From a bacterium (lineage in GTDB: Bacteria > Patescibacteriota > Minisyncoccia > Phycocordibacterales > UBA9973), in contig JAKBMK010000022.1 of NCBI GenBank assembly GCA_021831595.1, positions 1 to 61,456 on the forward strand: 61,456 bases of DNA, written 5' to 3'. Each line of letters opens with the position of its first letter. Position 1 is the first letter of the stretch. The position numbers and the translations under genes were made by a program. Below, one piece after another: positions 15,388 through 31,755 of the stretch. Under the pieces are notes generated by a model, which ran no database searches, was not told the DNA's origin, and saw nothing but the letters and a program-made list of their open reading frames with translations.

Positions 15388-15403
15388 TGCGGAGGCGGTG
15401 AGA
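15388..15403. repeat. orphan copy of the tRNA-Ser 3' end (putative distal att site of the island)
   Basis: TGCGGAGGCGGTGAGA is identical to 47339-47354. There is no tRNA body next to it. Confidence 0.7.
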
Positions 15404-15449
15404 ACGTGAGTACACTTTTCGAATTTTACATATTCTGTACACCTTTCGC

Positions 15450-15477
15450 GTGATTTTAAATATTAATTTAAAATCAC
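15450..15477. promoter_or_regulatory. perfect 12-4-12 palindrome in the island arm
   Basis: GTGATTTTAAAT-atta-ATTTAAAATCAC. Nearby are GTACAC motifs at 15408-15415 and 15437-15442, plus an inverted copy at 15575-15582. Confidence 0.4.
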
Positions 15478-15540
15478 AAGCTCAAGGTTTTCTCATCTCA
15501 CACGCAAGCAAAGCAGTTTGCTTGCTCGCCTCTGCCCAAC

Positions 15541-15612
15541 AAAAAAGACCCTGACGGGTCATTTTGTACGAGCGGTGTACTCGGGTATGGTACCCGTGGG
15601 TGCAACCCTTGT
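15541..15612 (-). ncRNA. candidate ~70-nt small RNA (promoter + terminator, no ORF)
   Basis: A minus-strand extended -10 TGCTAAAAT (15619-15627) is followed by GC-rich hairpins (CGGGTA-cca-TACCCG) and then a GACCC-gtca-GGGTC + T6 terminator (15541-15560). Confidence 0.25.
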
Positions 15613-15707
15613 AAGGACATTTTAGCATCTTTTTGAGAGTAAGACTAAGGTTTGTGGGTCGCTATGTGTAAATGCCAACAAATGCCAATTTTTGGTATAA
15701 TACGAAT

Positions 15708-16403
15708 ATGAAAATGACAGTCGGCGAATTAGTAGCAAAACAAATGAAAGAAGATAAGAGTTCTTTAACCCTACCAAATGGGCTTCTTCCTCCTGGGGCT
15801 AAAGAGGCTCTAGTATCGATTGCCGATATGAAGAAAAAGATAGAAGAACCACTTAGAAAACAACTTGAAATGGCAAAATTGGCATATGGTAGTATAGCTC
15901 CGCATTTAGATAGAATAGCTGAAATGAATAAGATAGTTCAAGAAAATTACATTATTCCACAAAGAAGGATTCAAGAAGTAAGAATTGTTAATTCTGAAGA
16001 ACTAGGAATCAGATCAAACAGAAAGGAAAATAATGTAGTTGTTGCATCATATCTGTTGCCTAAAAATGCTAATTGGGAAAGTTTAAGCATTCAATTTTTA
16101 GATGGGCATGTTGTTAATGTTTCTTATTCAGGAATGAAATCACAAAAGTTTGATTTTAAAGATATGGGCTTTATGAACATGAAGACGAACAAACCAGATT
16201 TAAAATGGGAATTACTCCGAGCAATTGCGGAAAATAGTGGAGCATTAACTAAGTCTAAATGGAACAGAAAATTTGGGCGAAACGTTAAATATGAACTCAA
16301 TGAGAGATTAAAGAAATTTTTTGGTATGGATTCAAATCCTATTTCTCACTACACTAAAAAAGGAGGATATCGAGCCACTTTTTCTCTCACAGAAGTTAAA
16401 TAG
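15708..16403 (+). CDS. hypothetical protein (first island gene)
   Basis: ORF 15672-16403 trimmed to the ATG at 15708, because TGGTATAAT (15693-15701) lies 6 nt upstream of it. No domain recognised. Confidence 0.55.
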   Translation: MKMTVGELVAKQMKEDKSSLTLPNGLLPPGAKEALVSIADMKKKIEEPLRKQLEMAKLAYGSIAPHLDRIAEMNKIVQENYIIPQRRIQEVRIVNSEELGIRSNRKENNVVVASYLLPKNANWESLSIQFLDGHVVNVSYSGMKSQKFDFKDMGFMNMKTNKPDLKWELLRAIAENSGALTKSKWNRKFGRNVKYELNERLKKFFGMDSNPISHYTKKGGYRATFSLTEVK

Positions 16404-16515: not shown

Positions 16516-17874
16516 TTGTCATTCAATGACGAATATGTTTTAGGGAAGAAGCTAAGAACCTTCCCCGAAGAACATATTATGAAAAAGCAAAAGTTAGTAT
16601 GGTCAGTTACTTCTCGTAAAGTAAGTGACTTAGTAAAAAACGGATACAATCCGAGAAAATTAGGTGAGGGTGAAAAAAGAGACTTAGAAAAGTCTATAAA
16701 GGAATTTGGAGCAGTAGTTCCTGTTATCCTTAATATCGGCTCTAGGTCTAATATTCTTATTGGTGGTGAACAGCGTGTAAAAGTCTATGCTGATCTTGGC
16801 ATAGAAGATGTTGAGTGTATGATACCTTCTCGAGAGTTAACATTAGAGGAAGAAAAAGAACTCAATTTGAGACTAAATAAAAACACTGGATCATGGGATG
16901 AAGAGCTTCTAAAAGAGTTCGAAATGGATATGCTTCTTAATGTTGGTTTTGGAGACGAAGAATTACAAAATCTTTTTGATGATGTAGATCTTGTTGAGGA
17001 TGATTTTGATATTGAAAAAGCTATTAAAGAAACCATTAATCCAAAAGTAAAAATTGGCGAGATATGGGAACTTGGAAAACATAGGTTGCTTGTGGGCGAC
17101 TCCACTGACATAACTTCTGTACAAAAGCTAATGGATAGTGACCTTGCAGACATAATCTACTGTGATCCCCCATATAACATTGGATTGGACTATTCAAAGG
17201 GTGTTGGTAATAAAGAAAAATATCAAGGTTCGTATTCTGCTAAAGATGACTCCAAAAAAGATTCTGATTACATGGATTTTTTAGATAAGAGTATGGAAGT
17301 AGCTAAAATCATAGCTAAGAAAAATTCACATTTCTTTTATTGGTCTGATTCTTCATATCTCTGGATGACTCAGGAATTATACAAAAAGAATGATATTCAA
17401 AATAAAAGAGTTTGCCTATGGTTGAAAAATAATCAGAATTGCACCCCTAAGATTGCCTTTAATAAAGTCTATGAACCTTGTGTTTATGGGGTTATTGGTA
17501 AACCTTATATTAACCCTAACATGAATAATGCCAATGAAATTCTTAATCAAGAAATAACAACCGGCAATCAAGCTCACGATGAGATACTTGAAATGATAGA
17601 TATCTGGATAGAAAAAAGAGACAGTGCTCAATCATATCAACATCCTACTCAAAAACCTGTCACCTTAAATGAAAAACCTCTTAAACGTTGTAGTGCACCT
17701 ATGCATATTGTATTCAGTGGCTTCGGTGGAAGCGGTAGTGATTTAATTGCATGCGAAGAACTTGGTAGATGTTGGCGTGGGGTCGAAAAAGATTTAATCT
17801 TCGCAACTATCATCATAGACAGATGGGAAAAATTTACCAACCTTAAGGCAAAGAAAATTTATGAAAATAAATAA
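16516..17874 (+). CDS. ParB/Srx-like N-terminal domain fused to an N4/N6 DNA methyltransferase (beta class)
   Basis: 452 aa. NPRKL...GAVVPVILN...LIGGEQR is ParB-nuclease-like. DPPYN (motif IV), HPTQKPV and FGGSGS (motif I) follow. An alternative ATG start at 16579 (MKKQKL) is at least as likely as the TTG at 16516. Confidence 0.85.
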   Translation: MSFNDEYVLGKKLRTFPEEHIMKKQKLVWSVTSRKVSDLVKNGYNPRKLGEGEKRDLEKSIKEFGAVVPVILNIGSRSNILIGGEQRVKVYADLGIEDVECMIPSRELTLEEEKELNLRLNKNTGSWDEELLKEFEMDMLLNVGFGDEELQNLFDDVDLVEDDFDIEKAIKETINPKVKIGEIWELGKHRLLVGDSTDITSVQKLMDSDLADIIYCDPPYNIGLDYSKGVGNKEKYQGSYSAKDDSKKDSDYMDFLDKSMEVAKIIAKKNSHFFYWSDSSYLWMTQELYKKNDIQNKRVCLWLKNNQNCTPKIAFNKVYEPCVYGVIGKPYINPNMNNANEILNQEITTGNQAHDEILEMIDIWIEKRDSAQSYQHPTQKPVTLNEKPLKRCSAPMHIVFSGFGGSGSDLIACEELGRCWRGVEKDLIFATIIIDRWEKFTNLKAKKIYENK

Positions 17875-18610
17875 AGGAGGAATCTATAAGGTTGGGAATC
17901 ATGTGATCGGGTGTGGTGATTCCACAGACCAAGTATTTGTGTCTAAGGTAATTGGAAAAAATAAAATACGAGCCATTATTGCTGATCCACCCTACGGTGT
18001 TGCGTATGTAGAAAATAAAAAAGGATTTGCAAAACTCGGTGTTAAAGATGAGAAAATAATTGCAGGCGACCATATCCAAAGTGAAGATGACTATGAAGAA
18101 TTCACTAGAAAATATCTAGGTGCAGTTGTTCCATATTTAGAAGAATATAATGCGTGTTACATATTTAATGCGGATCCAATGTTTCCATCACTTCGTATTG
18201 GTATGAAAAATGCAGGTTTTTATTACAGCCAAATGCTCATTTGGATTAAAAACCAACCTGTGATGAGTCGGAAAGATTACCTGTCGCAATATGAGCTCAT
18301 AGCATATGGATGGTTTGGTAAACATAAGACGGAAAGATCTAAAGCTAAAAATGTCATATATTATCCAAGACCAAATAAATCTAAACTTCACCCAACTCAA
18401 AAACCAATTGGTTTGCTTCGTAAAATTATTCCTGACAATACATCCATAGGAGATATTATTTATGATCCATTTTTAGGAAGTGGTTCTACTGCTATTAGTG
18501 CTGAACATTTAGGTCGAAAATGTATTGGTATAGAGATAGATGAGGGGTATGTATCTATTGTACTTCAGCGACTAGAAAAATTGACTGGAGATAAACCAGT
18601 TAAATTATAA
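17861..18610 (+). CDS. N4/N6 DNA methyltransferase (beta class)
   Basis: 249 aa. DPPYG, HPTQKPIGL and DPFLGSGST. Overlaps the previous gene by 14 nt. Confidence 0.85.
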   Translation: MKINKGGIYKVGNHVIGCGDSTDQVFVSKVIGKNKIRAIIADPPYGVAYVENKKGFAKLGVKDEKIIAGDHIQSEDDYEEFTRKYLGAVVPYLEEYNACYIFNADPMFPSLRIGMKNAGFYYSQMLIWIKNQPVMSRKDYLSQYELIAYGWFGKHKTERSKAKNVIYYPRPNKSKLHPTQKPIGLLRKIIPDNTSIGDIIYDPFLGSGSTAISAEHLGRKCIGIEIDEGYVSIVLQRLEKLTGDKPVKL

Positions 18611-18614
18611 ATGT

Positions 18615-18989
18615 ATGAACGAGGAAGACTTCACAAAAGATCCATACAAAAAACAAACATATGAGACATATGCTCTTTGGAAGTCCCTCCCTTCTTTTCT
18701 TAAAGGGCAACCAAGAGTAGCTCTTGAGAAATTTGGAATAAGCGAAGAAATAATATTTGATCTTTTATCAATAAAAACTCAAGCTGAATTTTCAAAGAAA
18801 TATTACATTGATGTTGGAACACTTACCGATTGGAATAAAAGATTAGAAAAAGATGGTCTTACTAAAGATATTAATAGTTGGGCTAGGAAGTTAACTCCAA
18901 ATGTTATCTTTGCTCTTTATAAAAATATAACCAAGAACGGCAGGGCTCATGAAGTGAGAGCTTGGTACGAATTAATTGAAAATAACTAA
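18615..18989 (+). CDS. small hypothetical protein with probable helix-turn-helix (terminase-small-subunit-like feel)
   Basis: 124 aa. AEFSKKYYIDVGTLTDWNKR looks like an HTH. Starts 5 nt after the MTase stop. Confidence 0.35.
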   Translation: MNEEDFTKDPYKKQTYETYALWKSLPSFLKGQPRVALEKFGISEEIIFDLLSIKTQAEFSKKYYIDVGTLTDWNKRLEKDGLTKDINSWARKLTPNVIFALYKNITKNGRAHEVRAWYELIENN

Positions 18990-18990
18990 T

Positions 18991-19185
18991 ATGGAAAACA
19001 TTAACTTAAATGAAATAAATACAATTCTCTCTGATACTCTTCGAAAAGTAATAAGTAAAGAAATATCGCTAAAGAAAGCAAGTATGATAGCAAAACTTGC
19101 CTCGACACTTTCAAAGAATATCGTGAATGTTGAATTGAAGGATAGAGTCGAATTTCTTGAACAAGCACTTAAAACAAGACGATAA
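18991..19185 (+). CDS. small coiled-coil hypothetical protein
   Basis: ORF 18976-19185 trimmed to the ATG at 18991 (MENINLNE...), 2 nt after the upstream stop. Confidence 0.4.
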   Translation: MENINLNEINTILSDTLRKVISKEISLKKASMIAKLASTLSKNIVNVELKDRVEFLEQALKTRR

Positions 19186-19188
19186 TAT

Positions 19189-20706
19189 ATGAAAAATCTA
19201 GCAAACATTTTAAGAAGATCTAACCTTTCTCCAAAAGAAAGAATTGTTACTATAATTCAAAATGAAGTTTATAAAGAAAAAAATGGCAAAGGAACTCTTA
19301 CTGAATCCGAAATCTATTCTTTGTCACAAGGATGGACACCAAAAGATTCTTATGAAGCTAAAGAATATAATAAATATTTGGAAGCATCTAAATTAGAAAA
19401 ATCTATGAGACTAGACGCACGAATGTTTGCATATAGATCAGAGAATTTATTATTAAGGAGTAATATATTAATCAATTATACAACATACTTAGAAAATACC
19501 TTGGATGATTTTAAGAAAAATGAAACCGTAAGTAGATATGTACCACAAGAAGAAATAATCAATTTTATAATGGAAAATACATATCTTTGTTACGATAAGC
19601 TAATTCATATATTTACTTTCAATAATCTTTCTATGAATATTAGAGACGACCTACTTCTTTTGGATGAGTATGCATCTTACGACAGTAAATATTTAGAAGA
19701 TGAAGTTTTTCTTTATGAGATATTTAATAAATCAACACCTTTGGATGCACAAAATAAAGATACTCTCATTAATCATATATTTTCTCGTATGTATAATGAT
19801 GGTTTTAGAAAAATAAAAAATGGGTCAGAAAAAGATGGTTTTATGTTATTGCATTCTTTCGCAGAACTTCCAATAAATAAAGTATTCGAGAAATGGGCTG
19901 AATATGCTCATATTAATCTTGATGAAAAAAATATCAGTACTGAAAATTATTTACTTAATAAATTTGAAGAATATTCAAAAGAAAAAAACCAAACGATGAA
20001 AATGATCGTAAAAGAGACGTTATCTAGATGGATAGATAATGGATTATTCGTATCCGAATATGCTCCTTTATTTTTTAGTAACAGAAAAGATACATGGAAT
20101 GGAAATGCAAAACTTACACATAAAGAAATTTTTACAAAATGGTATACAGAATTACAAAAGACAAAAACATTTATTGGCAATCTTGTTTCAGATGGAACTT
20201 TAGAAATTAAATTTATTGATAGAGAGATTTTCAGTACAATAGAAAAAATTAAGATTGTAACAAGCAAAAGTTTATATAAATGTAAATTGGATATTGATTT
20301 TGTAAAAGAATGTAAAGATCAAATGATGGTGTTATCACCAGTAGTAGGGTTATTTTTGTTTATAAAAAAGAATAATAATCCACTAGTAAACTACAAAACG
20401 CTGAAATCTTTTTGTGAAATAGCACAGATTTTTTCTGATATATTTGATATTGATATGACGGATAAATATTCAGAATCTTTGCAATCTTTTGAGCAAGAAC
20501 TAAATATGATAAATATTACTTTTAGCAAATTACTCGATAAGGTAAGTGGTCTTTTATATACAGATAAAAATATAAAGTATGTTTTAGAAATAAATGATGA
20601 TAATTTACTTTTTAATTTAAACGACAGATCGTCTCAAGTTGCAGATAGTATTATCGATGATTATAAAGGCGAACTTAAAAAGATGGGCTTCAGGACTGAT
20701 ATGTAA
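19189..20706 (+). CDS. large all-alpha hypothetical protein
   Basis: 505-aa uninterrupted ORF starting 4 nt after the previous stop. No motif recognised. Confidence 0.6.
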   Translation: MKNLANILRRSNLSPKERIVTIIQNEVYKEKNGKGTLTESEIYSLSQGWTPKDSYEAKEYNKYLEASKLEKSMRLDARMFAYRSENLLLRSNILINYTTYLENTLDDFKKNETVSRYVPQEEIINFIMENTYLCYDKLIHIFTFNNLSMNIRDDLLLLDEYASYDSKYLEDEVFLYEIFNKSTPLDAQNKDTLINHIFSRMYNDGFRKIKNGSEKDGFMLLHSFAELPINKVFEKWAEYAHINLDEKNISTENYLLNKFEEYSKEKNQTMKMIVKETLSRWIDNGLFVSEYAPLFFSNRKDTWNGNAKLTHKEIFTKWYTELQKTKTFIGNLVSDGTLEIKFIDREIFSTIEKIKIVTSKSLYKCKLDIDFVKECKDQMMVLSPVVGLFLFIKKNNNPLVNYKTLKSFCEIAQIFSDIFDIDMTDKYSESLQSFEQELNMINITFSKLLDKVSGLLYTDKNIKYVLEINDDNLLFNLNDRSSQVADSIIDDYKGELKKMGFRTDM

Positions 20707-20713
20707 AGCAAAT

Positions 20714-20753
20714 AACAATAAAAGGATGATTATATAATCATCCTTTTATTGTT
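20714..20753. terminator. bidirectional terminator (40-nt perfect palindrome)
   Basis: AACAATAAAAGGATGATTAT|ATAATCATCCTTTTATTGTT, between convergent genes. Confidence 0.8.
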
Positions 20754-20769
20754 AGATATTTACTCAAAC

Positions 20770-21756
20770 TTATTCCTTACTACCATCAGCGTAAATGATT
20801 GTTTTAACTTCCCATTTATACTTTAAATTAGTAAATTCTGTATCTTTCAATTTAACATCTTCATCCATAAATTGATTGTAGTCTATTCCTGATTCCCAAA
20901 CCTTACTTTGATGAGCAGGAATTGATTTATCATAACCAACACTTATTGCTTTAATTTTATTATCAAAAATATCATAAAAGGTTAAGACACCTTCTACTCC
21001 CTTAATATCTTTGTCTGTTTCATTGGTTAGTTTTAGATTCATTTGAATCTGATCTTGATAAGTGCCAGAGGTATAATCAGCTTCATAAAAACTCTTTTTT
21101 GTTACTTCAAGACTAACTTTATTTGCTTGAGTGCTTGGTGTTTGAGTATCTGTTTTAGTTACTCCTCCTTGTTGTAAACTTTTACTTAATTCTTCTTTTG
21201 CCTTAGCAACACTAGCAACATGTTTTGCTGTAGAGATTGAACCCATAATAATTGCTAATACAATTAATGCCACAATAGAAAGAATTACACCGTGTTTAGT
21301 TGATGAATTTTCTATTTGTTTTATACCTGATGCTTCTGCTTTTTTCTCATACTTCTTTGTAACTAAATGCATAATTATTCCTCCTGCAATTCCTACCATG
21401 AAAGCAATTATAGTAATAAATGTTCCACCAATGGCAGTTCCTATTGCACCACCCGCCTGTTCAAATTCATTAGCTGATGAAGAAATAACTTTTGAGCCAA
21501 TAACGAAAGTTAAAACTAATGCGGATACTGGAAGCAAGAAGAAAGAGATTTCTGTTAAACGAAAAAATCTTTCTAAAATATGATTCTTCTCCGTAAACTG
21601 ATAAACATTCCAGATCATTAAAATCCAGATAATTAAAAAACCTATACCCATATAAGAGTTACCCGTCATCCACGCATAATTTTGCCAAAAAATTAAAGCG
21701 GGTAACAATGCTAACAAAATCTTAAGAGACAAATGCTTTTTGATATTGTTTTCCAT
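20770..21756 (-). CDS. multi-pass membrane protein with C-terminal extracytoplasmic beta domain
   Basis: 328 aa. About 6 hydrophobic helices, a Gly-rich helix (GGAIGTAIGGTF), then a soluble C-terminal domain of about 120 aa. Confidence 0.6.
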   Translation of the reverse strand: MENNIKKHLSLKILLALLPALIFWQNYAWMTGNSYMGIGFLIIWILMIWNVYQFTEKNHILERFFRLTEISFFLLPVSALVLTFVIGSKVISSSANEFEQAGGAIGTAIGGTFITIIAFMVGIAGGIIMHLVTKKYEKKAEASGIKQIENSSTKHGVILSIVALIVLAIIMGSISTAKHVASVAKAKEELSKSLQQGGVTKTDTQTPSTQANKVSLEVTKKSFYEADYTSGTYQDQIQMNLKLTNETDKDIKGVEGVLTFYDIFDNKIKAISVGYDKSIPAHQSKVWESGIDYNQFMDEDVKLKDTEFTNLKYKWEVKTIIYADGSKE

Positions 21757-21782: not shown

Positions 21783-21937
21783 AAACCTAGTGATAAGACG
21801 CAAAAAGCCCACCACATAGGTAGTGACCGAAGTCACTCATATCCGTTTCCAGATACGGCAGATCGTGCGACCCCATATGATGGGTTCTTTATGCACGATC
21901 TGACTAACTTTCACCATGCCTTTATCACTAAAGGTTT
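21783..21937 (-). ncRNA. candidate structured RNA of unknown class (four-helix junction)
   Basis: A 14-bp closing helix joins 21783-21796 to 21922-21937. It encloses three hairpins: 21822-21837 (6 bp; the loop reads UUCG on the minus strand), 21843-21858, and 21861-21900 (8 bp plus an inner ACCC/GGGT stem). A minus-strand TATAAT lies at 21968-21973. Confidence 0.3.
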
Positions 21938-22041
21938 AGGCTACTTAAACTATTAACTTGTAAAGAAATTATACCTTATTTTTTAAGGTCGCACCATATT
22001 AGCTCACATTTAAGTATTTGTGTAGTCGAGTTATCAACAGC

Positions 22042-24495
22042 TTAATTTTGAGCGGTTTTATTTTTTGCTATACGTTTCTGGTGTTTCTTATCCCATTTTT
22101 TATGCCACTCTTCTTCCCAAGAAGGCAGGTTCAAATAGATTTGTTGTGTCGCATCACATACAGGCAACAAGCCAGTTATATGATCAAAATTTTTCTTCCA
22201 AGGTTCAGGCCAACAATGTGGGACACCAGGGAATTCTGTTAATTCAGTATTTGTAAGAACGAGTACCGGATTTATTGGTCGACTGTTTTTCCAATATTTT
22301 CTTCCTACTTTTGCGATTTTAGTTATATTTTTTATTTCATATGCAGTAAGTTCTTTTTTCATAGTACAAAATACAATAACGGCACCTGGAAACTTTTTAG
22401 CTAATCCGGACATTCTGTCAAAATCTTTCTTCTCAAAATCACTAAAGCTTTTACATTCAGCAAATAAAACACCGCTACAATCATTATTTCTGTTTGATTT
22501 TTGTTCCCAAAACCCAGCAAAATCAGCTTCCAGTTTTTTGCCTTCTTTGTCTGTTGCATTAAAACTAAAAACAGGAGAAAATTTTGTACCAATTAAGCTA
22601 TGCTCATTAAAGAAATTTACTCCGAGTAATACTGAAAATGCACCATCAGCATGTTGAGGAACACTGAAAGGTCCTGATGTTTTATAACTCCATGTTGAAA
22701 TATGTATGTTTCCAATAGCAGGAAAAGAATGAAGGCATTTAGGGCATACGCAAAGATCTTTAACATCATCAAGTTGATACCAAGATTTTCTAAAACACTC
22801 TGGGCATTCTATTTTTAGACCTAGCCTAAATATACCCTTTGATAAAAGATATTCATGTAAACTTTCGTCAGAACCTCCTCGACGGCTTTTGAGTTTGGCT
22901 TTTACTTTATCAACAGATAGATCTCTGCCTTCTTCTAGTTCAATATTGGTTGTAGCTTCATCTTTGTAAAGATTTTTCCCACCATTCATGTGGTCCAAGA
23001 CTTTTAATAAACTTTCATTTCCAAGAGTTGCAATATGACCGTCTAATTTATTATATATCTGCTTTGCAAGAACCCCTGGATTAGATAATTTAGAAACCCA
23101 CCCCTGGTCTTCCAGCCATGCGAAGAAAGTTTTTTCAGAAGTAGGGATATCCCAATATTCCTTAAGTGTATCTTTCACAAGATACACGAGACCATTTCTT
23201 CCAACTCTCCATTCGTTCCTAAAAGATCCCTGACTAGAAATAGCTCGAATAAACTTTTCACCAGTACTTCTAGGTAAAACTTCTGCCATATATTCATTTG
23301 AACCATAGAACCTAAAACTGATTTCGTTGGCGCAACACGGTTCACTATCCATACTTTTATCTTGTGTAAACTTTGGAAAGACTGGATTAAAATGAACTCT
23401 AAACTTCTCCATGTCTGTAATTTCTATGGAAGTTTGTTGTTCATATGTATCATTGGGGTCTGCACCATCATAGGCCCTGCCTCCACTCTCATCCCATATG
23501 CGTGGATACCAATGTTGTAAGCTAAAATAGCCAAATTTAGAAGTATCTTTCGGATCGTCAATTTTTACTGAAGATGCAAAAAAATTACTCATATCATCCA
23601 TGTCACAATTTCTGCCTCTAATTATAGAGACTACGTCAAATACGCCACGTTGATGTTTCCACTCATGCCTATTAGCTTTAATGAACTTAATCATTTCATC
23701 TTTTAGACTTTGATTGTCTCTTAATTGTTTAGGTAGAGGAAATACAGAACGTCCAAGGGCACGCAGATTCCAAAAATCTACAATATCCAAATGTTTTGAA
23801 GCATCAAAATAAAATACTGCTGCCTCTTTTCGGAAGCCAGAGTGTCTAAAGTGTTCAAGGTTTCCTTGTGTTGCTCGTCTAGGAAAAATATTATCTCCAT
23901 GGAAAAGATCACCAACCGAGGATAGGTCAATATCAATTTCTTTTATATCAAGCGGTTTGTAATAATTTTTTCTTAAAGCATCAAGAGTTTTGTCTGGGAA
24001 TTCACCGAAGATGCTTGCCCATAAAAGTGGATACTTGTTTGGTATTTTAGGAATAATAACCTTAACTGGATATTTGGGTTTATATTTAAAATGTATTTCA
24101 AATATTTCATTAAAAACATCAAAGATTCCGATACCAAAATGAGCTTTAAATGGACTACTGTAAACACCGTGTTGTTGCCAAATTTCATTAGGACTAATGA
24201 TTCTTAGTCCTGTATCTCTCACGAAAGCTGGAATCTCTTTTGAAAATTGAACAAGAATATCGGGGTCAAAGGAATCAATATATCCAAGAATAACTTTTTT
24301 AGGTTCTGGTGCTTTGATTGGACCTTCACGCCAAGTTTTGGGCATTTTCTTATACAGAGGAATAATTGGATTATAAACTCCTCCCCATAATGTGGAGCTG
24401 ATTTTAATTGCCTCACGAACTTGCTCCGGTGAATTTGGGTCAACGAGATAAGCAAGCTTTAGTGGTCTAACTTTTATATCAACTGTTCCTAACAT
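22042..24495 (-). CDS. large hypothetical protein with Zn ribbon and PD-(D/E)xK-like C-terminal region
   Basis: 819-aa ORF. Start moved to the third codon (ATG 24495) because a minus-strand TGCTAAAAT box (24502-24510) lies exactly 6 nt upstream of it. CPEC...(20 aa)...CPKC ribbon at about 22730-22820. EADFAG...VLFAECKSF (D...ExK pattern) at about 22450-22530. Confidence 0.65.
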   Translation of the reverse strand: MLGTVDIKVRPLKLAYLVDPNSPEQVREAIKISSTLWGGVYNPIIPLYKKMPKTWREGPIKAPEPKKVILGYIDSFDPDILVQFSKEIPAFVRDTGLRIISPNEIWQQHGVYSSPFKAHFGIGIFDVFNEIFEIHFKYKPKYPVKVIIPKIPNKYPLLWASIFGEFPDKTLDALRKNYYKPLDIKEIDIDLSSVGDLFHGDNIFPRRATQGNLEHFRHSGFRKEAAVFYFDASKHLDIVDFWNLRALGRSVFPLPKQLRDNQSLKDEMIKFIKANRHEWKHQRGVFDVVSIIRGRNCDMDDMSNFFASSVKIDDPKDTSKFGYFSLQHWYPRIWDESGGRAYDGADPNDTYEQQTSIEITDMEKFRVHFNPVFPKFTQDKSMDSEPCCANEISFRFYGSNEYMAEVLPRSTGEKFIRAISSQGSFRNEWRVGRNGLVYLVKDTLKEYWDIPTSEKTFFAWLEDQGWVSKLSNPGVLAKQIYNKLDGHIATLGNESLLKVLDHMNGGKNLYKDEATTNIELEEGRDLSVDKVKAKLKSRRGGSDESLHEYLLSKGIFRLGLKIECPECFRKSWYQLDDVKDLCVCPKCLHSFPAIGNIHISTWSYKTSGPFSVPQHADGAFSVLLGVNFFNEHSLIGTKFSPVFSFNATDKEGKKLEADFAGFWEQKSNRNNDCSGVLFAECKSFSDFEKKDFDRMSGLAKKFPGAVIVFCTMKKELTAYEIKNITKIAKVGRKYWKNSRPINPVLVLTNTELTEFPGVPHCWPEPWKKNFDHITGLLPVCDATQQIYLNLPSWEEEWHKKWDKKHQKRIAKNKTAQN

Positions 24496-24606
24496 AAACA
24501 TATTTTAGCAAAAAATGACCCTTAAATAAAGGCGTTTTAGTTATCAACTACTAGTACTCGGGACGCTCTGGACTCTTAGGGCTGGTTGCGTCATTAATGT
24601 AGGTAT

Positions 24607-25938
24607 ATGAAAATAGATAACCCAAATCAAGAGAAAGGAGTAGAAAAAATTAAGGTCGAACCAAAGAAGATCAGGTACTGTCTTTATGCGAGAAAATCAA
24701 CAGAATCAGAAGAAAGACAGGTTCTTTCAATAGACAGCCAAATCAGTGAAATGCTCCAATTAGCCGATCGTGAGGGGCTTGAAGTAGTCACTATGAAGCG
24801 TGAAAGCCATAGTGCTAAAGAGACTGGGCAAAGACCTGTATTTAACGAAATTATTGAAGAAATCAAACAAGACAAATTTAATGCAATCCTCACCTGGGCA
24901 CCCGATCGTATTTCAAGAAATGCAGGTGATCTTGGAAAAATTGTAGACTTAATGGATTCAGGAAAATTACATATGATACGAACCTTCGGACAAACATTTG
25001 GAAATAATCCAAATGAGAAGTTTCTCCTAATGATACTAGGAAGCCAAGCAAAACTAGAAAATGACAATCGAGGTATTAATGTGAAGCGAGGATTGCGAAC
25101 GAGAGTAGAGATGGGGTTATGGCCTGGGATGGCACCGCTTGGATATCTCAATCAAAAACTGATGGATAGGAAGTGCCAGATAGTAATTGATCCAGACAGA
25201 GCACCAATCATAAAGAAAATGTTTGAGAAAGTGGTATATGAACATTGGAGTGGTAGAAAAGTATATAACTGGTTACGATTTGATTTAAATTTCTATACTC
25301 GAGGAAATAAACCCCTGACACTATCAGGGGTTTATCGTATCTTTAATATGCCAATCTATTATGGACCATTTGAATACCCAAGAAATTCTGATAACTGGTA
25401 TCAAGGAAGTCATACTCCAATAATTACTCAAGAGTTATTTGAAAAAGCTCAAGCACAATTAAAGAGAGATAGAATTGTGAGAGAAAACAGAGAGTTTGCT
25501 TTCACTAAATTATTTACATGTGGAATGTGTAGCTCGGGAATATCTGCTCAAGAGAAGTACAAAGAACTTAAAGATGGAACTACCGCTAAATATGTTTACT
25601 ACTCTTGCTCAAAAGCGAGAGATCGAAATTGCAAAAATAAATATATTAGAGAAGAAGAATTGATAGATGAATTATTTAAAGTGATTGATAAGGTAAGTAT
25701 CAATGAATTAGGAATGAGAATCAAGCTTGAAGAAGAAATCAAGAGATTCAATCGACTTCAAAGATTGGCAACAAAAGGCACACCTAAATACTCAATAAAT
25801 GAGGATGATGTGAATACTAGAGAATACGCCAAGTATGTACTTAGAGAAGGCACACCACTTGAGAAGAGAGAACTACTTGGACATTTAAGGAGTAGATTGG
25901 TACTAAATGATAAGAAAATTACATTAATTGAAGAGTAG
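24607..25938 (+). CDS. large serine recombinase (resolvase domain + recombinase domain + zinc ribbon)
   Basis: 443 aa. YARKSTESEERQ catalytic-Ser region, ILTWAPDRISRN, GLWPGMAPLGY and CGMCSSGI...YYSC zinc ribbon. Confidence 0.9.
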   Translation: MKIDNPNQEKGVEKIKVEPKKIRYCLYARKSTESEERQVLSIDSQISEMLQLADREGLEVVTMKRESHSAKETGQRPVFNEIIEEIKQDKFNAILTWAPDRISRNAGDLGKIVDLMDSGKLHMIRTFGQTFGNNPNEKFLLMILGSQAKLENDNRGINVKRGLRTRVEMGLWPGMAPLGYLNQKLMDRKCQIVIDPDRAPIIKKMFEKVVYEHWSGRKVYNWLRFDLNFYTRGNKPLTLSGVYRIFNMPIYYGPFEYPRNSDNWYQGSHTPIITQELFEKAQAQLKRDRIVRENREFAFTKLFTCGMCSSGISAQEKYKELKDGTTAKYVYYSCSKARDRNCKNKYIREEELIDELFKVIDKVSINELGMRIKLEEEIKRFNRLQRLATKGTPKYSINEDDVNTREYAKYVLREGTPLEKRELLGHLRSRLVLNDKKITLIEE

Positions 25939-25970
25939 CAATTCAAAGTTGCATTTAATAAAGGTAGATG

Positions 25971-26000
25971 ATAACATATCAATATAATTTGATATGTTAT
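25971..26000. promoter_or_regulatory. 12-6-12 perfect inverted repeat over a TATAAT box (candidate ArsR operator/promoter)
   Basis: ATAACATATCAA-TATAAT-TTGATATGTTAT. It ends 1 nt before the arsR ATG. Confidence 0.55.
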
Positions 26001-26001
26001 T

Positions 26002-26304
26002 ATGAACAACAAAAAACAAAAAACATTTTTAGAGCAGTTAAAAGCATTGAGTGATAATACTCGACTCGATATTGTTTTATTTATCGCTTCCGGTGAAAAA
26101 TGTGTTTGTGATATATTTAAGCATCTAAAATTACCCCAAAATCTTATTTCCCACCACTTGGCAGTTTTGCGTAAAAATGAACTAATAATAAATCGCAAGG
26201 AAGGCAAATGGGTTCATTACTCCCTGAATAGAAAGAATTTTGAAAAGATACAAAAAAGCTTAGAAAAAATTATAAAAACAAAAGAAATAATATCAAAATG
26301 CTAA
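26002..26304 (+). CDS. arsR: ArsR/SmtB-family metalloregulator
   Basis: 100 aa. LSDNTRLDIVLFIASGEKCVCDI (metal-site CVC) and a wHTH (ISHHLAVLRKNELI). Confidence 0.85.
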   Translation: MNNKKQKTFLEQLKALSDNTRLDIVLFIASGEKCVCDIFKHLKLPQNLISHHLAVLRKNELIINRKEGKWVHYSLNRKNFEKIQKSLEKIIKTKEIISKC

Positions 26305-26327
26305 ATATTAATTTGAATAAACAAAAT

Positions 26328-26630
26328 ATGAATAAAAAAATTGTCATTTATGATCCGCCAATGTGTTGCTCAGCTGGTGTATGTGGTCCTAACCCAGACC
26401 AAACACTTATTAGCTTACAAGACACATTGGAAGAAGTTAAAAAGTTGGGTATAGAGGTTGAACGTTATCTTATTACACAAAGCCCCGAAAAATTCAAGGA
26501 AAATTCTGAGATTATAAAACTAATTCAAGGACAGCAACTAAAAGTATTACCAATTACAACTTACGAAGGAAAGATCGTTAAAACCGGTTCATATCCAACG
26601 CTTGAAGAATTTAAAAAGTTTATTAATTAA
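26328..26630 (+). CDS. arsD: arsenical resistance operon metallochaperone ArsD
   Basis: MNKKIVIYDPPMCCSAGVCGP carries the Cys12-Cys13-Cys18 signature. ORF 26298 trimmed to this ATG. Confidence 0.85.
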   Translation: MNKKIVIYDPPMCCSAGVCGPNPDQTLISLQDTLEEVKKLGIEVERYLITQSPEKFKENSEIIKLIQGQQLKVLPITTYEGKIVKTGSYPTLEEFKKFIN

Positions 26631-28486
26631 TGAAAAATAATATGAATACAAAATTTTATTTCTTTTCAGGCAAGGGCGGTGTAGGTAAAACAACAATGGC
26701 TGCTTCAAGCGCGGTATATTTTGCGGGTCTTGGAAAGAAAACTCTCATTGTTACCACTGACCCAGCTTCAAACTTAGCGGATGTTTTTGAGCAAAAAATT
26801 GGTCACAAGATTACAAAGATTAAAACAAATGAAAATCTCTTTGCGATGGAACTTGATCCGGATGTCGCTACGGCTGAATATAAAGAAAGAACGCTATCTC
26901 CGCTTCGTGGTTTGATTCCTGAGGAAAGTTTTGTAGTTCTAGAAGAGCAATTAAATTCACCTTGCACGGCAGAAATGGCCGCCTTTGATCGTTTTACCGA
27001 CTTTTTGCAAGAACCCAAATATGAAATAGTGATCTTTGATACTGCCCCGACTGGACACACCCTACGACTTTTGGAATTGCCAGTGGAATGGAGTGGTGTT
27101 ATAGAAAAGGCCGCTAAAGAAGGTGGTGGCGAAACCTGCATTGGTCCAGCCGCTGCTCTATCTGAATCAAAAGCTAAATTTGACCAAGCCATAGCAGCCA
27201 TGAGAGATACTTCCAGAACTACATTCGTTTTTGTCCTACGACCTGAAGTAACACCGATTTATGAGGCTGAGCGTTCTATTGCTGAGCTTTTAAAGCTTAA
27301 AATAACTTCACAAGAACTCATTATCAATGGCATTTATCCTCAAGATGTTTGTAATAATCCGTTTATGTTGGCGCGTTTGGCCAAACAGCAAGAATTTTTG
27401 GGAATTATAAAGAACAAATTTTCCATCCCCATTACTTTGATAGAGCTTGAACCAGGCGAAATCAAGGGTGAAAAATCGCTAATTAAAATGGGCAAAAAGC
27501 TTCACGAGCAAGCTCTAAAGTTAAAAGATTATCAGCCAGTAAAAATAACTATAGATAAGAGTAAATTTACGTTGGGCGATATTCCCAAAGTTGATGAGAA
27601 AATAAAACCATTACTTATTCCTCAAAATAGCAAAAGACGAACAATCTTTTTTGCTGGCAAAGGAGGAGTAGGAAAAACTTCAGTGGCAGCAGCAACGGGC
27701 TTGTGGATTGCTGAACAAGGTTATAAAACACTGCTTTTGACAACTGACCCAGCTTCTCATTTAAGCCAGATTTTTGAGCAGGATGTGAATGATAAGCCAA
27801 CTTTAATAAAAGGTGAAAAAAGTTTATGGGCTTGTCGAATCGATCCAGTTAAGGCGGTTGCCGAATACAAAGAGAAAATCTTAGTTGAAGCCAGACAAAA
27901 ATATGACAAACAAAGAGTAATTGCCATTGAAGAAGAATTGAATTCGCCCTGCACAGAAGAAATGGCTACTTTTGAGAAATTTATTGATTTTGCTACAAGA
28001 AAAGATTTTGAGGTTATCGTCTTTGACACTGCTCCAACTGGACATACATTACGACTTCTAGAATTGCCAGTTGACTGGAGCAAACAAATAGAAATCAAAA
28101 CTTTTACCTCAACTGGTGAAACAGAAATTGATAAAATTACCAAATCGCGTTTCAAAGAAGTCATTGATATGATACAGGACATCAATCAGACAACTTTCAG
28201 TTTTGTGATGTATCCTGAGTCCACTCCTATTGAAGAAGCAGCTCGGGCCATGGATGAACTTCTAGCTATTGGTGTTCCTACCAGTCTTGTTGTAGCGAAT
28301 TTCATCCTGCCAAAATCAATTATCACGAATGATTATCTAAGACAAAGGAAAACAATGCAAGAAAAATATCTAGTGGAAATGGAGAGACGTTTTACCTCTC
28401 CGATTGTAGAATTGCCACTTTTGGTCGATGATTTAATCGGCAAAGATAATCTTATGCTTGCTGGGCATATGCTATACGGAAAATAA
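26630..28486 (+). CDS. arsA: arsenite-stimulated ATPase ArsA (two homologous halves)
   Basis: 618 aa. GKGGVGKTT appears twice and DTAPTGHTLRLLELP appears twice. Confidence 0.92.
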   Translation: MKNNMNTKFYFFSGKGGVGKTTMAASSAVYFAGLGKKTLIVTTDPASNLADVFEQKIGHKITKIKTNENLFAMELDPDVATAEYKERTLSPLRGLIPEESFVVLEEQLNSPCTAEMAAFDRFTDFLQEPKYEIVIFDTAPTGHTLRLLELPVEWSGVIEKAAKEGGGETCIGPAAALSESKAKFDQAIAAMRDTSRTTFVFVLRPEVTPIYEAERSIAELLKLKITSQELIINGIYPQDVCNNPFMLARLAKQQEFLGIIKNKFSIPITLIELEPGEIKGEKSLIKMGKKLHEQALKLKDYQPVKITIDKSKFTLGDIPKVDEKIKPLLIPQNSKRRTIFFAGKGGVGKTSVAAATGLWIAEQGYKTLLLTTDPASHLSQIFEQDVNDKPTLIKGEKSLWACRIDPVKAVAEYKEKILVEARQKYDKQRVIAIEEELNSPCTEEMATFEKFIDFATRKDFEVIVFDTAPTGHTLRLLELPVDWSKQIEIKTFTSTGETEIDKITKSRFKEVIDMIQDINQTTFSFVMYPESTPIEEAARAMDELLAIGVPTSLVVANFILPKSIITNDYLRQRKTMQEKYLVEMERRFTSPIVELPLLVDDLIGKDNLMLAGHMLYGK

Positions 28487-28503
28487 AATTTTACAACACC
28501 ACT

Positions 28504-29123
28504 ATGAACAATTTAGATCAAAAAAATAGATTATATAAAAAGGGGCTTTGGTTAGAATATTTTACGGTCGGTTACAATATTGTTGAAGGATTTGTTTCAA
28601 TCGGCTCAGGAATAATTGCTGGAAGTGTTGCTTTAATTAGTTTCGGTTTGGATAGCTTTATAGAGTCTATCTCTGGAGGAGTTCTTATTTGGAGACTGAA
28701 ATATAATTTGGAAGATAAAAAAAGGAAGAAGAAATTGAGCGAAAGGCTGTTAAATATGTGGCTTATTCTTTTTTCATTCTTGCCTTTTATGTGGCGTATG
28801 AAGCAATTAAAAAACTTTACCTTAATGAAATGCCTGAAGGTTCATTAATGGGCATAATTATAGCGTCTCTTTCTATTATTATTATGCCATTTCTTGCCAG
28901 TCAAAAACGAAAGGTAGGTGAAAAAATCGGTAGTAAGGCATTAGTGGCTGATTCTAAAGAAACCGTTGCCTGTGTTATACTTTCAGTAACTTTACTTATT
29001 GGGCTTTTGTTTAATTATTTTTTTGGTTGGTGGTGGGCAGACCCAATTGCTTCTTTAATAATTGTCTGGTTCTTGATTAAAGAAGGGCGAGAGTTGTTAG
29101 AAGGTGAAGAAAATGAGAATTGA
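28504..29123 (+). pseudogene. cation-efflux (CDF-like) membrane protein split by a frameshift at an A7 run
   Basis: ORFs 28504-28848 and 28758-29123 are two halves of one protein. The frames join at AAAAAAA (28717-28723). One extra A would give ...LEDKKKEEEIERKAVKYVAYSFF... Confidence 0.6.
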
Positions 29124-29168
29124 TATTGAAATAATTCTATGATTAAATAAAAATTAACTTTGCAAATT

Positions 29169-31734: not shown

Positions 31735-31755
31735 ATTTAGTTTGTTTAATTACTA

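What the first reader, a model, noticed from the sequence alone, without database searches (positions are those of the whole stretch)
16516..20706. Tightly coupled five-gene operon: ParB-domain MTase, second MTase, HTH, 64-aa and 505-aa unknowns
Seen: five ORFs are joined by overlaps or gaps of -14, +4, +1 and +3 nt, which suggests translational coupling. The first two are beta-class N4/N6 methyltransferases (DPPY, TQKP, FxGSGS motifs). The first also carries a ParB/Srx-like N-terminal domain. The last three have no motif I recognise.

Established: two separate MTases are typical of systems that recognise asymmetric sites (Type IIS-like). ParB-MTase fusions are common orphan MTases of phages and plasmids.

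Inference: this could be the modification and sensor half of an undescribed defence system. The 505-aa protein and the nearby 817-aa nuclease-like protein would be partners. Alternatively it is an anti-restriction or replication module of the mobile element.
Basis: partly seen in the sequence, partly recalled or inferred. Interest (0 to 1): 0.8.

Follow-up and report, generated by a model that had tools for sequence, protein, structure and literature searches.

The report
Backbone operon of a Patescibacteria genomic island
The five tightly packed genes are real, but they are not half of a defence system: they are the conserved backbone of an apparently undescribed family of mobile genomic islands in ultra-small Patescibacteria that insert at a serine-tRNA gene and carry swappable defence and resistance genes.

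Summary
Five ORFs at 16579-20706 are joined by -14, +4, +1 and +3 nt. The first two are DPPY-type N6_N4 methyltransferases, and the first carries a ParB-like N-domain.

The same block, in the same order and spacing, occurs in about 40 related loci from Patescibacteria MAGs. This holds even where the 505-aa protein is only 22-29% identical. A large serine recombinase lies 0.2-9 kb downstream on the same strand in 20 first-set loci and in L040, L041 and L044.

The DNA between block and recombinase is variable cargo: Type I and Type III R-M, OLD, an Hhe-like helicase-nuclease, reverse transcriptases and unknowns.

The 819-aa protein is one such cargo gene. It is absent from 34 related loci and stands alone in other phyla, so it is not a partner of the block.

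A 16-22 bp copy of the tRNA-Ser 3' end flanks the island in three loci. In the window these copies are at 15388-15403 and in the tRNA at 47340-47427.

The 505-aa protein folds confidently (pLDDT 91) but matches nothing in PDB, BFVD, Pfam or PHROGs. With the 64-aa protein it forms a pair that also occurs in other small mobile elements.

Best reading: an establishment and maintenance operon of the island. The methyltransferases are orphan, and the function of the 64/505 pair is unresolved.

The parts
15388..15403 (-). Displaced 16-bp copy of the 3' end of tRNA-Ser. It forms a direct repeat with 47339-47354 and is the putative left attachment junction of the island.
   Evidence: Exact repeat found. 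Equivalent fragments lie 80-190 bp left of the conserved core in L005/6, L017, L026, L003 (two copies), L031, L011 and L022, and 1-1.9 kb left in L001 and L010.
15404..15571 (+). Left arm of the island. It varies between sub-lineages and ends in a terminator-like hairpin at 15547-15560.
   Evidence: 78% identical to L005/L006 and partly shared with L026. L005 and L006 are 99.9% identical from the tRNA fragment rightwards and unrelated to its left.
15572..15701 (+). Conserved left end of the backbone (GCGGTGTACTCGGGTATGGTACCC...). It carries a tandem AAATGCCAA x2 box and an extended -10 promoter (TGGTATAAT).
   Evidence: Similarity starts sharply at 15572 in 11 loci whose upstream flanks are unrelated. 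The 23-33 nt promoter/operator box is 90-100% identical in 15 further loci whose left core end otherwise differs. It is the best promoter-like site of the region.
15708..16403 (+). First gene of the operon, 231 aa from ATG 15708 (listed as 243 aa from 15672). This is a variable position with no assigned family.
   Evidence: Homologues at 47-83% identity occur in about half of the loci. The others carry unrelated genes of about 370-396 aa here. There is no Pfam hit and no PDB hit.
16579..17874 (+). ParB-N-domain / beta-class DPPY DNA methyltransferase fusion, 431 aa.
   Evidence: Family hits. 68-97% identical across the first-set loci and 46-67% in the distant clade. About 30% identical over full length to methyltransferases in 338 phage records.
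17861..18610 (+). Second DPPY DNA methyltransferase, 249 aa. It overlaps the first by 14 nt.
   Evidence: Family hits. 73-98% identical across the first-set loci and 44-67% in the distant clade. Only 26% identical to the methyltransferase domain of the first.
18615..18989 (+). 124-aa all-helical protein. It is the most conserved protein of the block and a possible DNA binder (weak HTH signal).
   Evidence: 71-94% identical across loci. 235 relatives, all unnamed. AF2 pLDDT 72, and no match in PDB by sequence or fold.
18991..19185 (+). 64-aa helical protein. It is homologous to the C-terminal half of the Zn-ribbon ~124-131-aa proteins that precede 505-like genes in other mobile elements.
   Evidence: 63-90% identical across loci. 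hhalign probability 92%, E 5e-7, over 59 columns.
19189..20706 (+). 505-aa orphan protein. It is mostly helical and predicted with high confidence, and it is the fastest-evolving member of the block.
   Evidence: 99 close relatives and 218 clusters at 50% identity, all unannotated. AF2 pLDDT 91, pTM 0.81. No hit in PDB or BFVD by fold, in PDB by profile, or in Pfam or PHROGs across 39 members. Only 35-79% identical where its neighbours are 63-98%.
20713..20754 (.). Bidirectional terminator hairpin with a 19-bp stem. It closes the operon and the convergent cargo gene.
20770..21756 (-). Cargo: 328-aa membrane protein.
   Evidence: Present only in L008 (95% identical) among the related loci.
21822..21942 (-). 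LOOT RNA (Rfam RF03000), inside a conserved non-coding island at 21765-22047. A terminator-like hairpin follows at 21826-21809.
   Evidence: 74 bits against a gathering score of 46.4. Present on the same strand in the cargo region of 8 of 15 elements scanned. Conserved DNA island. Hairpin.
22042..24501 (-). It occupies the slot that holds R-M and other defence systems in sister elements.
   Evidence: No family hit and no PDB hit. Absent from the 34 first-set loci. 388 relatives across phyla, found as a solo gene elsewhere.
24607..25938 (+). Large serine recombinase, 443 aa, with Resolvase + Recombinase + Zn_ribbon_recom domains. Backbone similarity ends at 25926-25941.
   Evidence: Domains and PHROG integrase at E 2e-64. 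56-99% identical homologues lie downstream of the block on the same strand in 20 first-set loci and in L040, L041 and L044.
25939..47339 (.). Tentative right-hand cargo of the island: arsR-arsD-arsA, cation efflux, two heavy-metal P-type ATPases, DsbA-like and DsbD/cupredoxin proteins.
   Evidence: Pfam hits. This region lies between the recombinase and the tRNA-Ser that carries the direct repeat. The ORF list shows no third recombinase-length candidate here, but most of these ORFs were not scanned.
47340..47427 (-). Intact tRNA-Ser. Its 3' 16 bp repeat 15388-15403, making it the putative right attachment junction.
   Evidence: ARAGORN. The same arrangement is seen in L003 (tRNA 118 bp after the recombinase stop, 19-20 bp repeat) and in L001 (22 bp repeat).

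Best explanation
The five genes are the conserved backbone operon of a family of integrative genomic islands of Patescibacteria (mostly Paceibacteria-type MAGs).

Island layout: tRNA-Ser 3' fragment, short left arm, conserved end with promoter, one variable gene, ParB-methyltransferase, second methyltransferase, 124-aa, 64-aa, 505-aa, cargo slot, large serine recombinase, optional second cargo slot, intact tRNA-Ser.

Shown:
- the linkage of the five genes to each other and to the recombinase;
- the sharp conserved left end;
- the tRNA-Ser direct repeats;
- nearly identical islands in different genomic contexts;
- defence and resistance genes in the variable slots.

Inferred mechanism:
- The recombinase excises and integrates the island at the 3' end of tRNA-Ser.
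- The single conserved promoter at the left end drives the operon.
- The two DPPY (probably N6-adenine) methyltransferases have no conserved cognate nuclease. They would act as orphan enzymes that pre-methylate island DNA so it survives restriction in a new host. This is the role proposed for orphan methyltransferases of phages and plasmid leading regions.
- The very conserved 124-aa protein is a DNA-binding regulator or recombination accessory factor.
- The 64/505 pair also accompanies a primase plus tyrosine integrase, or a ParA/RHH partition pair, in other small elements. I take it to be a maintenance or replication module for the excised circle. This last assignment is the weakest step.
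For: Linkage:
- The identical five-gene order and spacing occur in every related locus with enough sequence (L001-L034, L038, L040/41, L043-45, L047/48). This holds even where the 505-aa protein is only 22-29% identical.
- A large serine recombinase lies 0.2-9 kb downstream on the same strand in 20 first-set loci and in L040, L041 and L044.

Mobility:
- DNA similarity begins at the same base (window 15572) in 11 loci with unrelated flanks. It ends at the recombinase stop codon.
- L005 and L006 are 99.9% identical over 9.6 kb starting exactly at a tRNA-Ser fragment, with unrelated DNA to its left.
- Direct repeats of the tRNA-Ser 3' end bracket the island: 16 bp in the window, 19-20 bp in L003 and 22 bp in L001.

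Cargo:
- Type III R-M, Type I R-M plus OLD, an Hhe/PDC-S37 helicase-nuclease, and RT and SNase modules.
- Unknowns such as the 819-aa protein; cargo families are mostly locus-specific.

Orphan methyltransferases:
- PADLOC finds only methyltransferase models in the block.
- The literature describes orphan methyltransferases as a prominent leading-region and phage anti-restriction function (PMC11541004, PMC7736820).

The 64/505 pair as a mobile-element gene pair:
- It occurs in circular 10.16-kb contig L046 with a tyrosine integrase, MerR/Xis-like protein, DnaG-like primase and Fic protein.
- It occurs in L042 behind ParA plus an RHH protein.
- The 64-aa protein is homologous to the C-terminal half of the upstream Zn-ribbon protein there.
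Against: - No empty target site or circular junction was found in metagenome or genome collections, so excision is inferred and not observed.
- About half of the loci show no tRNA-Ser fragment within the sequence held to the left. Their outer ends are therefore undefined. The backbone (15572 to the recombinase) may also move or recombine as a unit of its own.
- Large serine recombinases do not need 16-22 bp of identity. The repeat is explained only by assuming the island carries a copy of the tRNA end.
- Nothing identifies the biochemical activity of the 124-, 64- or 505-aa proteins. The 505-aa model has no fold relative, so 'replication/maintenance' rests on gene neighbourhood alone.
- The islands lack a recognisable primase, helicase, relaxase or packaging gene, so the route of cell-to-cell transfer is unknown.
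- In the window, the 21 kb between the recombinase and the tRNA could be a separate, older island.
Confidence: 0.7

Rival explanations
1. The block is itself a self-contained defence or R-M-like system riding on the island. Two methyltransferases would mark an asymmetric site, the 124-aa protein would act as a controller, and the 64/505 pair would be a new effector or sensor acting on unmodified DNA.
For: - Two intact methyltransferases are always together.
- The 505-aa protein evolves much faster than its neighbours (35-79% against 63-98% identity), as arms-race genes do.
- The setting is rich in defence genes.
- Restriction enzymes are often orphans in family databases (own knowledge).
Against: - The 505-aa model is almost entirely helical, with no beta-sheet core of the PD-(D/E)XK, HNH, GIY-YIG or PLD kind. 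It has no P-loop and no PDB or BFVD match.
- No PADLOC model other than methyltransferases matches.
- The 64/505 pair occurs without methyltransferases next to primase, integrase or ParA genes.
- The 124-aa protein is not an XRE-type C protein.
- The block is invariably tied to a recombinase and conserved element ends, as a backbone would be, whereas real defence systems sit in the variable slot.
Confidence: 0.12
2. The block is the remnant or working part of a phage-derived packaging module, so the island is a phage satellite. The methyltransferases would sit just upstream of a TerS-like 124-aa protein, and the 64/505 pair would hijack or replace helper-phage packaging functions.
For: - In Streptococcus phage Javan159 a ParB-methyltransferase homologue (30% identical, full length) is followed by a second methyltransferase, then TerS, TerL (530 aa) and portal. 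This matches the gene order and sizes seen here.
- Satellites typically combine an integrase, small regulators and defence cargo (own knowledge).
- L046 carries an excisionase-family HTH_17 protein and a primase, as P4/PICI-like satellites do.
Against: - None of the 124-, 64- or 505-aa proteins matches a PHROG above noise.
- The 505-aa protein is not TerL-like in fold or motifs.
- The family is absent from IMG/VR, INPHARED and PLSDB.
- No capsid, portal or cos/pac feature was identified.
Confidence: 0.13
3. The block is an ordinary chromosomal operon of these bacteria (epigenetic regulation) that merely lies near a recombinase. It is not a mobile element.
For: All copies lie on chromosomal-looking contigs up to 457 kb long. 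No circular form was found.
Against: Flanks differ completely between loci, with a sharp common boundary. tRNA-Ser direct repeats are present. Cargo is variable. The identities of the recombinase and of the 505-aa protein are decoupled between loci (e.g. L005: 95% against 47%).
Confidence: 0.03

Closest known systems
Orphan ParB-domain / N6_N4 DNA methyltransferases of phages and plasmid leading regions (e.g. PHROG 498; M.EcoGIX-type establishment methyltransferases)
   Same: Same domain fusion and DPPY beta-class catalytic core. They are carried on a mobile element with no conserved cognate nuclease. They are often paired with a second methyltransferase (PMC11541004, PMC7736820).
   Different: Only about 30% identical to any phage enzyme. 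Here the fusion is fixed in a five-gene operon with three orphan proteins, on an integrative island of Patescibacteria. Specificity and substrate (ss or ds DNA) are unknown.
Large-serine-recombinase islands such as SCCmec (CcrAB) and Tn4451/Tn5397-type elements
   Same: A large serine recombinase (best NCBIfam match CcrB, E 1.6e-37 but far below cut-off). A small conserved backbone with variable cargo regions. Insertion at a specific chromosomal site.
   Different: The backbone genes are unrelated: no Cch/primase-like or Mob genes. The target is the 3' end of tRNA-Ser with a 16-22 bp repeat. The cargo is mainly defence systems. The host is a CPR bacterium.
Defence-cargo hotspots of integrative satellites and islands (P4-like, PICI-like elements)
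   Same: A conserved core plus a hotspot between core and integrase that holds diverse, rapidly exchanged defence systems. Integration is next to a tRNA.
   Different: No recognisable satellite replication or packaging genes. It uses a serine, not tyrosine, recombinase. No link to a helper phage is shown.
Type IIS-like R-M systems with two methyltransferases
   Same: Two separate, adjacent methyltransferase genes that are translationally coupled.
   Different: No restriction endonuclease is conserved with them. This defining feature was tested and not met.

Membership tests
Type II/IIS restriction-modification system | DNA methyltransferase(s) with intact catalytic (DPPY) and SAM-binding (FxGxG) motifs | tested here: met
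   PF01555 matches at E 2.6e-18 and 4.9e-31, and the motifs are visible in both translations.
Type II/IIS restriction-modification system | A cognate restriction endonuclease gene conserved next to the methyltransferase(s) | tested here: not met
   No nuclease family or fold is present in the 124-, 64- or 505-aa proteins. The 819-aa neighbour is absent from the 34 first-set loci.
Orphan methyltransferases of mobile elements (ParB-MTase fusions) | ParB/Srx-like N-domain fused to an N6_N4 methyltransferase | tested here: met
   ParB_N scores 23.9 bits, just under its cut-off. PHROG 620 matches at E 1.3e-25 and PHROG 498 at E 2.8e-84. Homologues carry precomputed PF02195 hits.
Orphan methyltransferases of mobile elements (ParB-MTase fusions) | Methylation of element DNA that protects against restriction | not testable with these tools
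   This needs methylome data or heterologous expression.
Integrative element driven by a large serine recombinase | Recombinase with Resolvase + Recombinase + Zn_ribbon_recom domains linked to the element | tested here: met
   Domains. Linked downstream on the same strand in 20 first-set loci and in L040, L041 and L044.
Integrative element driven by a large serine recombinase | Defined ends, with the same element found in different genomic contexts | tested here: met
   A sharp common left end in 11 loci. L005 and L006 are 99.9% identical with unrelated left flanks. tRNA-Ser direct repeats occur in the window, L001 and L003.
Integrative element driven by a large serine recombinase | Observed empty site (attB) or excised circular junction (attP) | tested here: inconclusive
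   Exact-pattern scans of metagenome and genome collections found none. Exact matching and assembled contigs make this a weak test.
Prophage or phage satellite | Terminase, capsid or portal genes, or presence in viral collections | tested here: not met
   No PHROG structural or packaging hit for the backbone proteins. No relative in IMG/VR, INPHARED or BFVD.
Integrative conjugative or mobilisable element | Relaxase and/or type IV secretion genes | tested here: not met
   No such Pfam family in the backbone or in the scanned cargo proteins. Not every cargo ORF was scanned.
Known anti-phage defence systems (PADLOC-DB 2.0) | Match of non-methyltransferase components to a system model | tested here: not met
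   Only MTase_II, oMTase and MTase_III models hit. The 124-, 64-, 505- and 819-aa proteins have none.
LOOT RNA (Rfam RF03000) | Covariance-model score above the curated gathering score | tested here: met
   74 bits against 46.4 over the full-length model 1-121. Seven further copies score 68-84 bits in sister elements.

The most novel reading that the evidence does not exclude
The 64-aa/505-aa pair is a new, structurally unprecedented core function of Patescibacteria mobile elements. It could be a replication initiator for excised circles. It could instead be the 'very different relaxase' or transfer factor whose apparent absence has led others to argue that patescibacterial type IV secretion systems are not used for conjugation (PMC12102498). 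The pair is shared by serine-recombinase islands, a circular tyrosine-integrase/primase element and a ParA-bearing element. The island family would then be a major, so far unrecognised vehicle for exchanging defence systems, and the LOOT RNA, among these bacteria.
Probability: 0.2. Interest if true: 0.8.

Novelty: new variant of a known kind. Interest (0 to 1): 0.6.

Why it matters
Patescibacteria are a large share of bacterial diversity, yet little is known about how they exchange genes. In this analysis:
- The backbone is conserved from 22% to 99% protein identity.
- The element ends are recognisable and the target is a tRNA-Ser gene.
- Two cargo slots hold R-M, OLD, Hhe-like and reverse-transcriptase systems, and also large orphan proteins.

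Practical consequences:
- The slots are a ready-made place to look for new defence genes such as the 819-aa family.
- The recombinase and its attachment sites are candidates for genetic tools in a group that is very hard to manipulate.
- The LOOT RNA, a curated motif with no known function, gains a genetic context.
- The 505-aa protein is a confidently folded protein with no detectable structural relative.

Tried and rejected
- **505-aa protein, family and fold.** I found nothing in Pfam, PHROGs, PADLOC or NCBIfam. A profile against PDB sequences gave nothing. A profile against 1.84 billion representatives found only its own family. Ten distant members had no Pfam hit. All 39 alignment members scanned against Pfam and PHROGs gave no recurrent family. 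Foldseek against PDB and BFVD gave nothing: best E 0.013 and 0.11, TM at most 0.15.
- **505-aa protein as terminase large subunit.** Phage synteny suggested it. I rejected it because the protein has no P-loop, is almost all helical and has no fold match.
- **124-aa protein.** A PDB profile search and Foldseek gave nothing. There is no homology to the Zn-ribbon 124-aa proteins of L039/L042.
- **819-aa protein as partner.** Rejected on the evidence.
- **Empty site and circular junction.** Scans found nothing.
- **GTACTCGGG motif.** It is shared by the left end and the region upstream of the recombinase in the window. It is not conserved in other loci, so I dropped it.
- **Recombinase stop codon supplied by the flank.** I considered this. 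I rejected it because the last residues (L-[IV]-x-x-stop) stay similar at protein level, so the backbone edge lies at or just after the stop codon.
- **Literature.** Searches for a described Patescibacteria island of this type found none. The held text of the paper that introduced many Rfam motifs does not discuss LOOT, and its supplements are not held.
- **Collections.** Phage and plasmid collections hold no relative of the 505-like or Zn-ribbon proteins.

Full report
**1. Observation**

The window carries five same-strand ORFs: 16516/16579-17874, 17861-18610, 18615-18989, 18991-19185 and 19189-20706. Their junctions are -14, +4, +1 and +3 nt.
- Both large N-terminal ORFs are N6_N4 DNA methyltransferases (Pfam E 2.6e-18 and 4.9e-31). 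DPPY, TQKP and GSGS motifs are visible in both translations.
- The first has a ParB-like N-domain. Pfam scores it 23.9 bits against a cut-off of 26.3, and PHROG 'ParB-like partition protein' matches at E 1.3e-25.
- Homologues show that the first gene starts at ATG 16579, giving 431 aa.
- The 124-aa protein has only sub-threshold HTH hits.
- The 64- and 505-aa proteins match no family in Pfam, PHROGs, PADLOC or NCBIfam.
- One promoter-like site with an extended -10 precedes the operon at 15672-15701. A 19-bp-stem bidirectional terminator follows it at 20713-20754.

**2. The block is deeply conserved and always tied to a recombinase**

The 505-aa protein has 99 close relatives, all about 495 aa and unannotated, from Patescibacteria MAGs.

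Gene maps of six contigs and tblastn over 28 genome loci give the same picture. Every locus with enough sequence has ParB-methyltransferase, methyltransferase, 124-aa, 64-aa and 505-aa genes in that order and spacing.

Identity to the window proteins:

| Protein | Identity across loci |
|---|---|
| ParB-methyltransferase | 68-97% |
| Second methyltransferase | 73-98% |
| 124-aa | 71-94% |
| 64-aa | 63-90% |
| 505-aa | 35-79% |

A large serine recombinase (56-99% identical) lies 0.2-9 kb downstream on the same strand in 20 of these loci. A profile search of 1.84 billion representatives found 218 clusters, all of the same family. A distant clade of about 600 aa, only 22-29% identical, still sits in the same five-gene block. 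The recombinase is seen downstream in L040, L041 and L044.

**3. It is a mobile island with defined ends**
- blastn similarity to sister loci starts at the same base, window 15572 (GCGGTGTACTCGGGTATGGTACCC), in 11 loci whose upstream flanks are unrelated. It stops at the recombinase stop codon, 25926-25941.
- A 16-bp copy of the 3' end of tRNA-Ser lies at 15388-15403, which is 184 bp to the left. It is an exact repeat of the end of the intact tRNA-Ser at 47340-47427.
- The same signature occurs elsewhere. In L003 two fragments lie to the left and the intact tRNA lies 118 bp after the recombinase, with a 19-20 bp repeat. In L001 the repeat is 22 bp and a Shedu-type SduA_C gene lies between recombinase and tRNA.
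- Left-hand fragments alone are seen in L005/6, L017, L026, L031, L011, L022 and L010.
- L005 and L006 come from different samples. They are 99.9% identical over 9.6 kb starting exactly at the tRNA fragment and are unrelated to its left.

I read this as integration into the 3' end of tRNA-Ser by an island that carries a copy of that end.

In the window the repeat-bounded unit is 15388-47427, about 32 kb. The 21 kb to the right of the recombinase encodes arsR-arsD-arsA, cation efflux, two heavy-metal P-type ATPases and Dsb-type proteins. That stretch may be a second cargo region or an older, fused island.

No empty site or circular junction was found by exact-pattern scans.

**4. Variable cargo**

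Genes between the 505-aa gene and the recombinase differ from locus to locus. They include:
- Type III R-M (L014, L018, L022);
- Type I R-M with an OLD-family nuclease (L030) or with T5orf172 (L038);
- an Hhe/PDC-S37-like helicase-nuclease plus DUF2779 (L016);
- a recurrent reverse-transcriptase module and an SNase-domain protein;
- transporters and large orphans;
- in L040, GmrSD and an EcoRI-type methylase to the left of the block.

The window's cargo is a 328-aa membrane protein, found otherwise only in L008, and the 819-aa orphan.

The 819-aa orphan is in none of the 34 first-set loci. It belongs to a family of 388 proteins spread across phyla at about 50% identity. It sits alone among housekeeping genes in Desulfonatronum and Terracidiphilus. 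It is therefore independent cargo and a reasonable candidate single-gene defence protein. It is not a partner of the operon.

**5. The unknown proteins**

The 505-aa protein:
- Modelled with 39 homologues, it reaches pLDDT 91 and pTM 0.81. It is almost entirely helical, with a 48-residue helix and one beta-hairpin.
- It has no Foldseek match in PDB or BFVD. It has no profile match to PDB sequences. No family recurs across members.
- It lacks a P-loop and the sheet core of the known nuclease folds.
- It is absent from IMG/VR, INPHARED and PLSDB.

The 124-aa protein is the most conserved of the block. Its model is all-helical at pLDDT 72 and is equally unmatched.

Three loci carry a 505-like gene without methyltransferases:
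- L042: ParA, an RHH protein, a Zn-ribbon 124-aa protein, a 601-aa protein and a 434-aa protein.
- L039: MerR-like protein, HTH_17 protein, Zn-ribbon 124-aa protein and a 623-aa protein.
- L046: a circular 10.16-kb contig with a 55-bp terminal overlap. It encodes HTH_17, Fic, a Zn-ribbon 131-aa protein, a 610-aa protein, a 367-aa protein, a DnaG-like primase, a tyrosine integrase and a MerR/Xis-like protein. The Fic, primase and integrase labels rest on motifs I read in the sequences, not on a family search.

The 64-aa protein is homologous to the C-terminal half of these Zn-ribbon proteins (hhalign probability 92%, E 5e-7). The 64/505 pair is therefore an old mobile-element gene pair found in three architectures.

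**6. Interpretation**

The operon is the island's backbone.
- The methyltransferases have no conserved nuclease partner. They resemble the ParB-methyltransferase plus second methyltransferase pairs of phages: about 30% identical, and placed before TerS/TerL in phage Javan159.
- Orphan methyltransferases are reported as prominent anti-restriction functions of phages and plasmid leading regions (PMC11541004, PMC7736820). Protection of incoming island DNA is therefore the most economical role.
- The first gene after the promoter is replaced by unrelated genes in different lineages. That is the behaviour expected of an anti-defence or host-interaction gene, but this is inference.
- For the 64/505 pair I favour a maintenance or replication role, from its company with primase, integrase and ParA. 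Confidence is low.

Rivals, with the confidence I give each:

| Rival | Confidence |
|---|---|
| Self-contained methylation-dependent defence system | 0.12 |
| Satellite-type packaging module | 0.13 |
| Non-mobile chromosomal operon | 0.03 |

**7. Novelty**

Integrative islands with a serine recombinase, orphan methyltransferases and defence cargo are a known kind. The following features appear undescribed in the literature I could search:
- this backbone;
- the tRNA-Ser target;
- the Patescibacteria host range;
- the fold-orphan 505-aa family;
- the association with LOOT RNA.

[quoted passage not shown] This leaves room for the more novel reading of the 64/505 pair.

I score interest at 0.6 and rate the finding a new variant of a known kind.

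Noticed in passing
window 21822-21942 (-), inside the conserved non-coding island 21765-22047: A full-length LOOT RNA (Rfam RF03000, 74 bits against a cut-off of 46.4), followed by a terminator-like hairpin at 21826-21809 and then the 328-aa gene. LOOT copies lie on the same strand in the cargo region of 8 of 15 elements scanned. These are the elements whose recombinase is at least 86% identical to the window's, although L022 (also 86%) lacks one. The copies precede unrelated genes. LOOT has no known function, and this gives it a genetic context.
   Followed up: partly
window 22042-24501 (-): The 819-aa orphan belongs to a family of 388 proteins of about 820 aa. The family is about 50% identical across Patescibacteria, Acidobacteria and Desulfobacterota, and it occurs as a solo gene among housekeeping genes. 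It has no Pfam, PADLOC or PDB match. Here it sits in the slot that holds R-M systems in sister islands, so it is a candidate single-gene defence protein.
   Followed up: partly
window 25939-47427: A metal-resistance stretch lies between the recombinase and the tRNA-Ser that carries the 16-bp direct repeat. It holds arsR-arsD-arsA, cation efflux, two heavy-metal P-type ATPases, two DsbA-like proteins and a DsbD-cupredoxin-HMA protein. It may be a second cargo region of the same island or an older fused island.
   Followed up: partly
window 59667-61394: A second large serine recombinase ORF (60012-61394, minus strand) is about 31% identical to the first. Its listed ORF matches only the C-terminal part of the Resolvase domain. 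Its 3' end overlaps the 3' end of the tmRNA gene (59667-60058). This may be another element inserted at ssrA.
   Followed up: no
window 47340-47427 (-) and 47525-47612 (+): Two divergently placed tRNA-Ser genes. ARAGORN assigns the one that carries the island repeat the unusual anticodon ACT.
   Followed up: no
L046 1-10212 (contig CAYQKA010000031.1): A circular 10.16-kb contig with a 55-bp terminal overlap, with all genes on one strand. It encodes an HTH_17 protein, a Fic-motif protein, a Zn-ribbon 131-aa protein, a 505-like 610-aa protein, a 367-aa protein, a DnaG-like primase, a membrane protein, a tyrosine integrase and a MerR/Xis-like protein. It looks like a complete small mobile element that shares the 64/505-type pair.
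   Followed up: partly
L007, L014, L017, L018, L022: cargo just downstream of the 505-aa gene (e.g. L018 11501-14431): A recurrent three-gene module of 298-323 aa, 142-150 aa and a 348-380-aa reverse transcriptase (RVT_1, E 1.6e-26). It may be a retron- or DRT-like defence module.
   Followed up: no
window 15670-15701 and the equivalent position in all related loci: A tandem AAATGCCAA x2 box lies directly upstream of an extended -10 (TGGTATAAT). A core of 23-33 nt is 90-100% identical even in 15 loci where the rest of the left end has diverged. It is probably the operator and promoter of the backbone operon.
   Followed up: partly
L003 5605 and 5779: Two copies of the tRNA-Ser 3' fragment lie 174 bp apart to the left of one island. 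This suggests successive integrations at the same tRNA.
   Followed up: no
L005 against the window (recombinase 95% identical, 505-aa protein 47%): The identities of the recombinase and of the 505-aa protein are decoupled between islands. This indicates recombination between backbones or fast diversification of the 505-aa gene.
   Followed up: no
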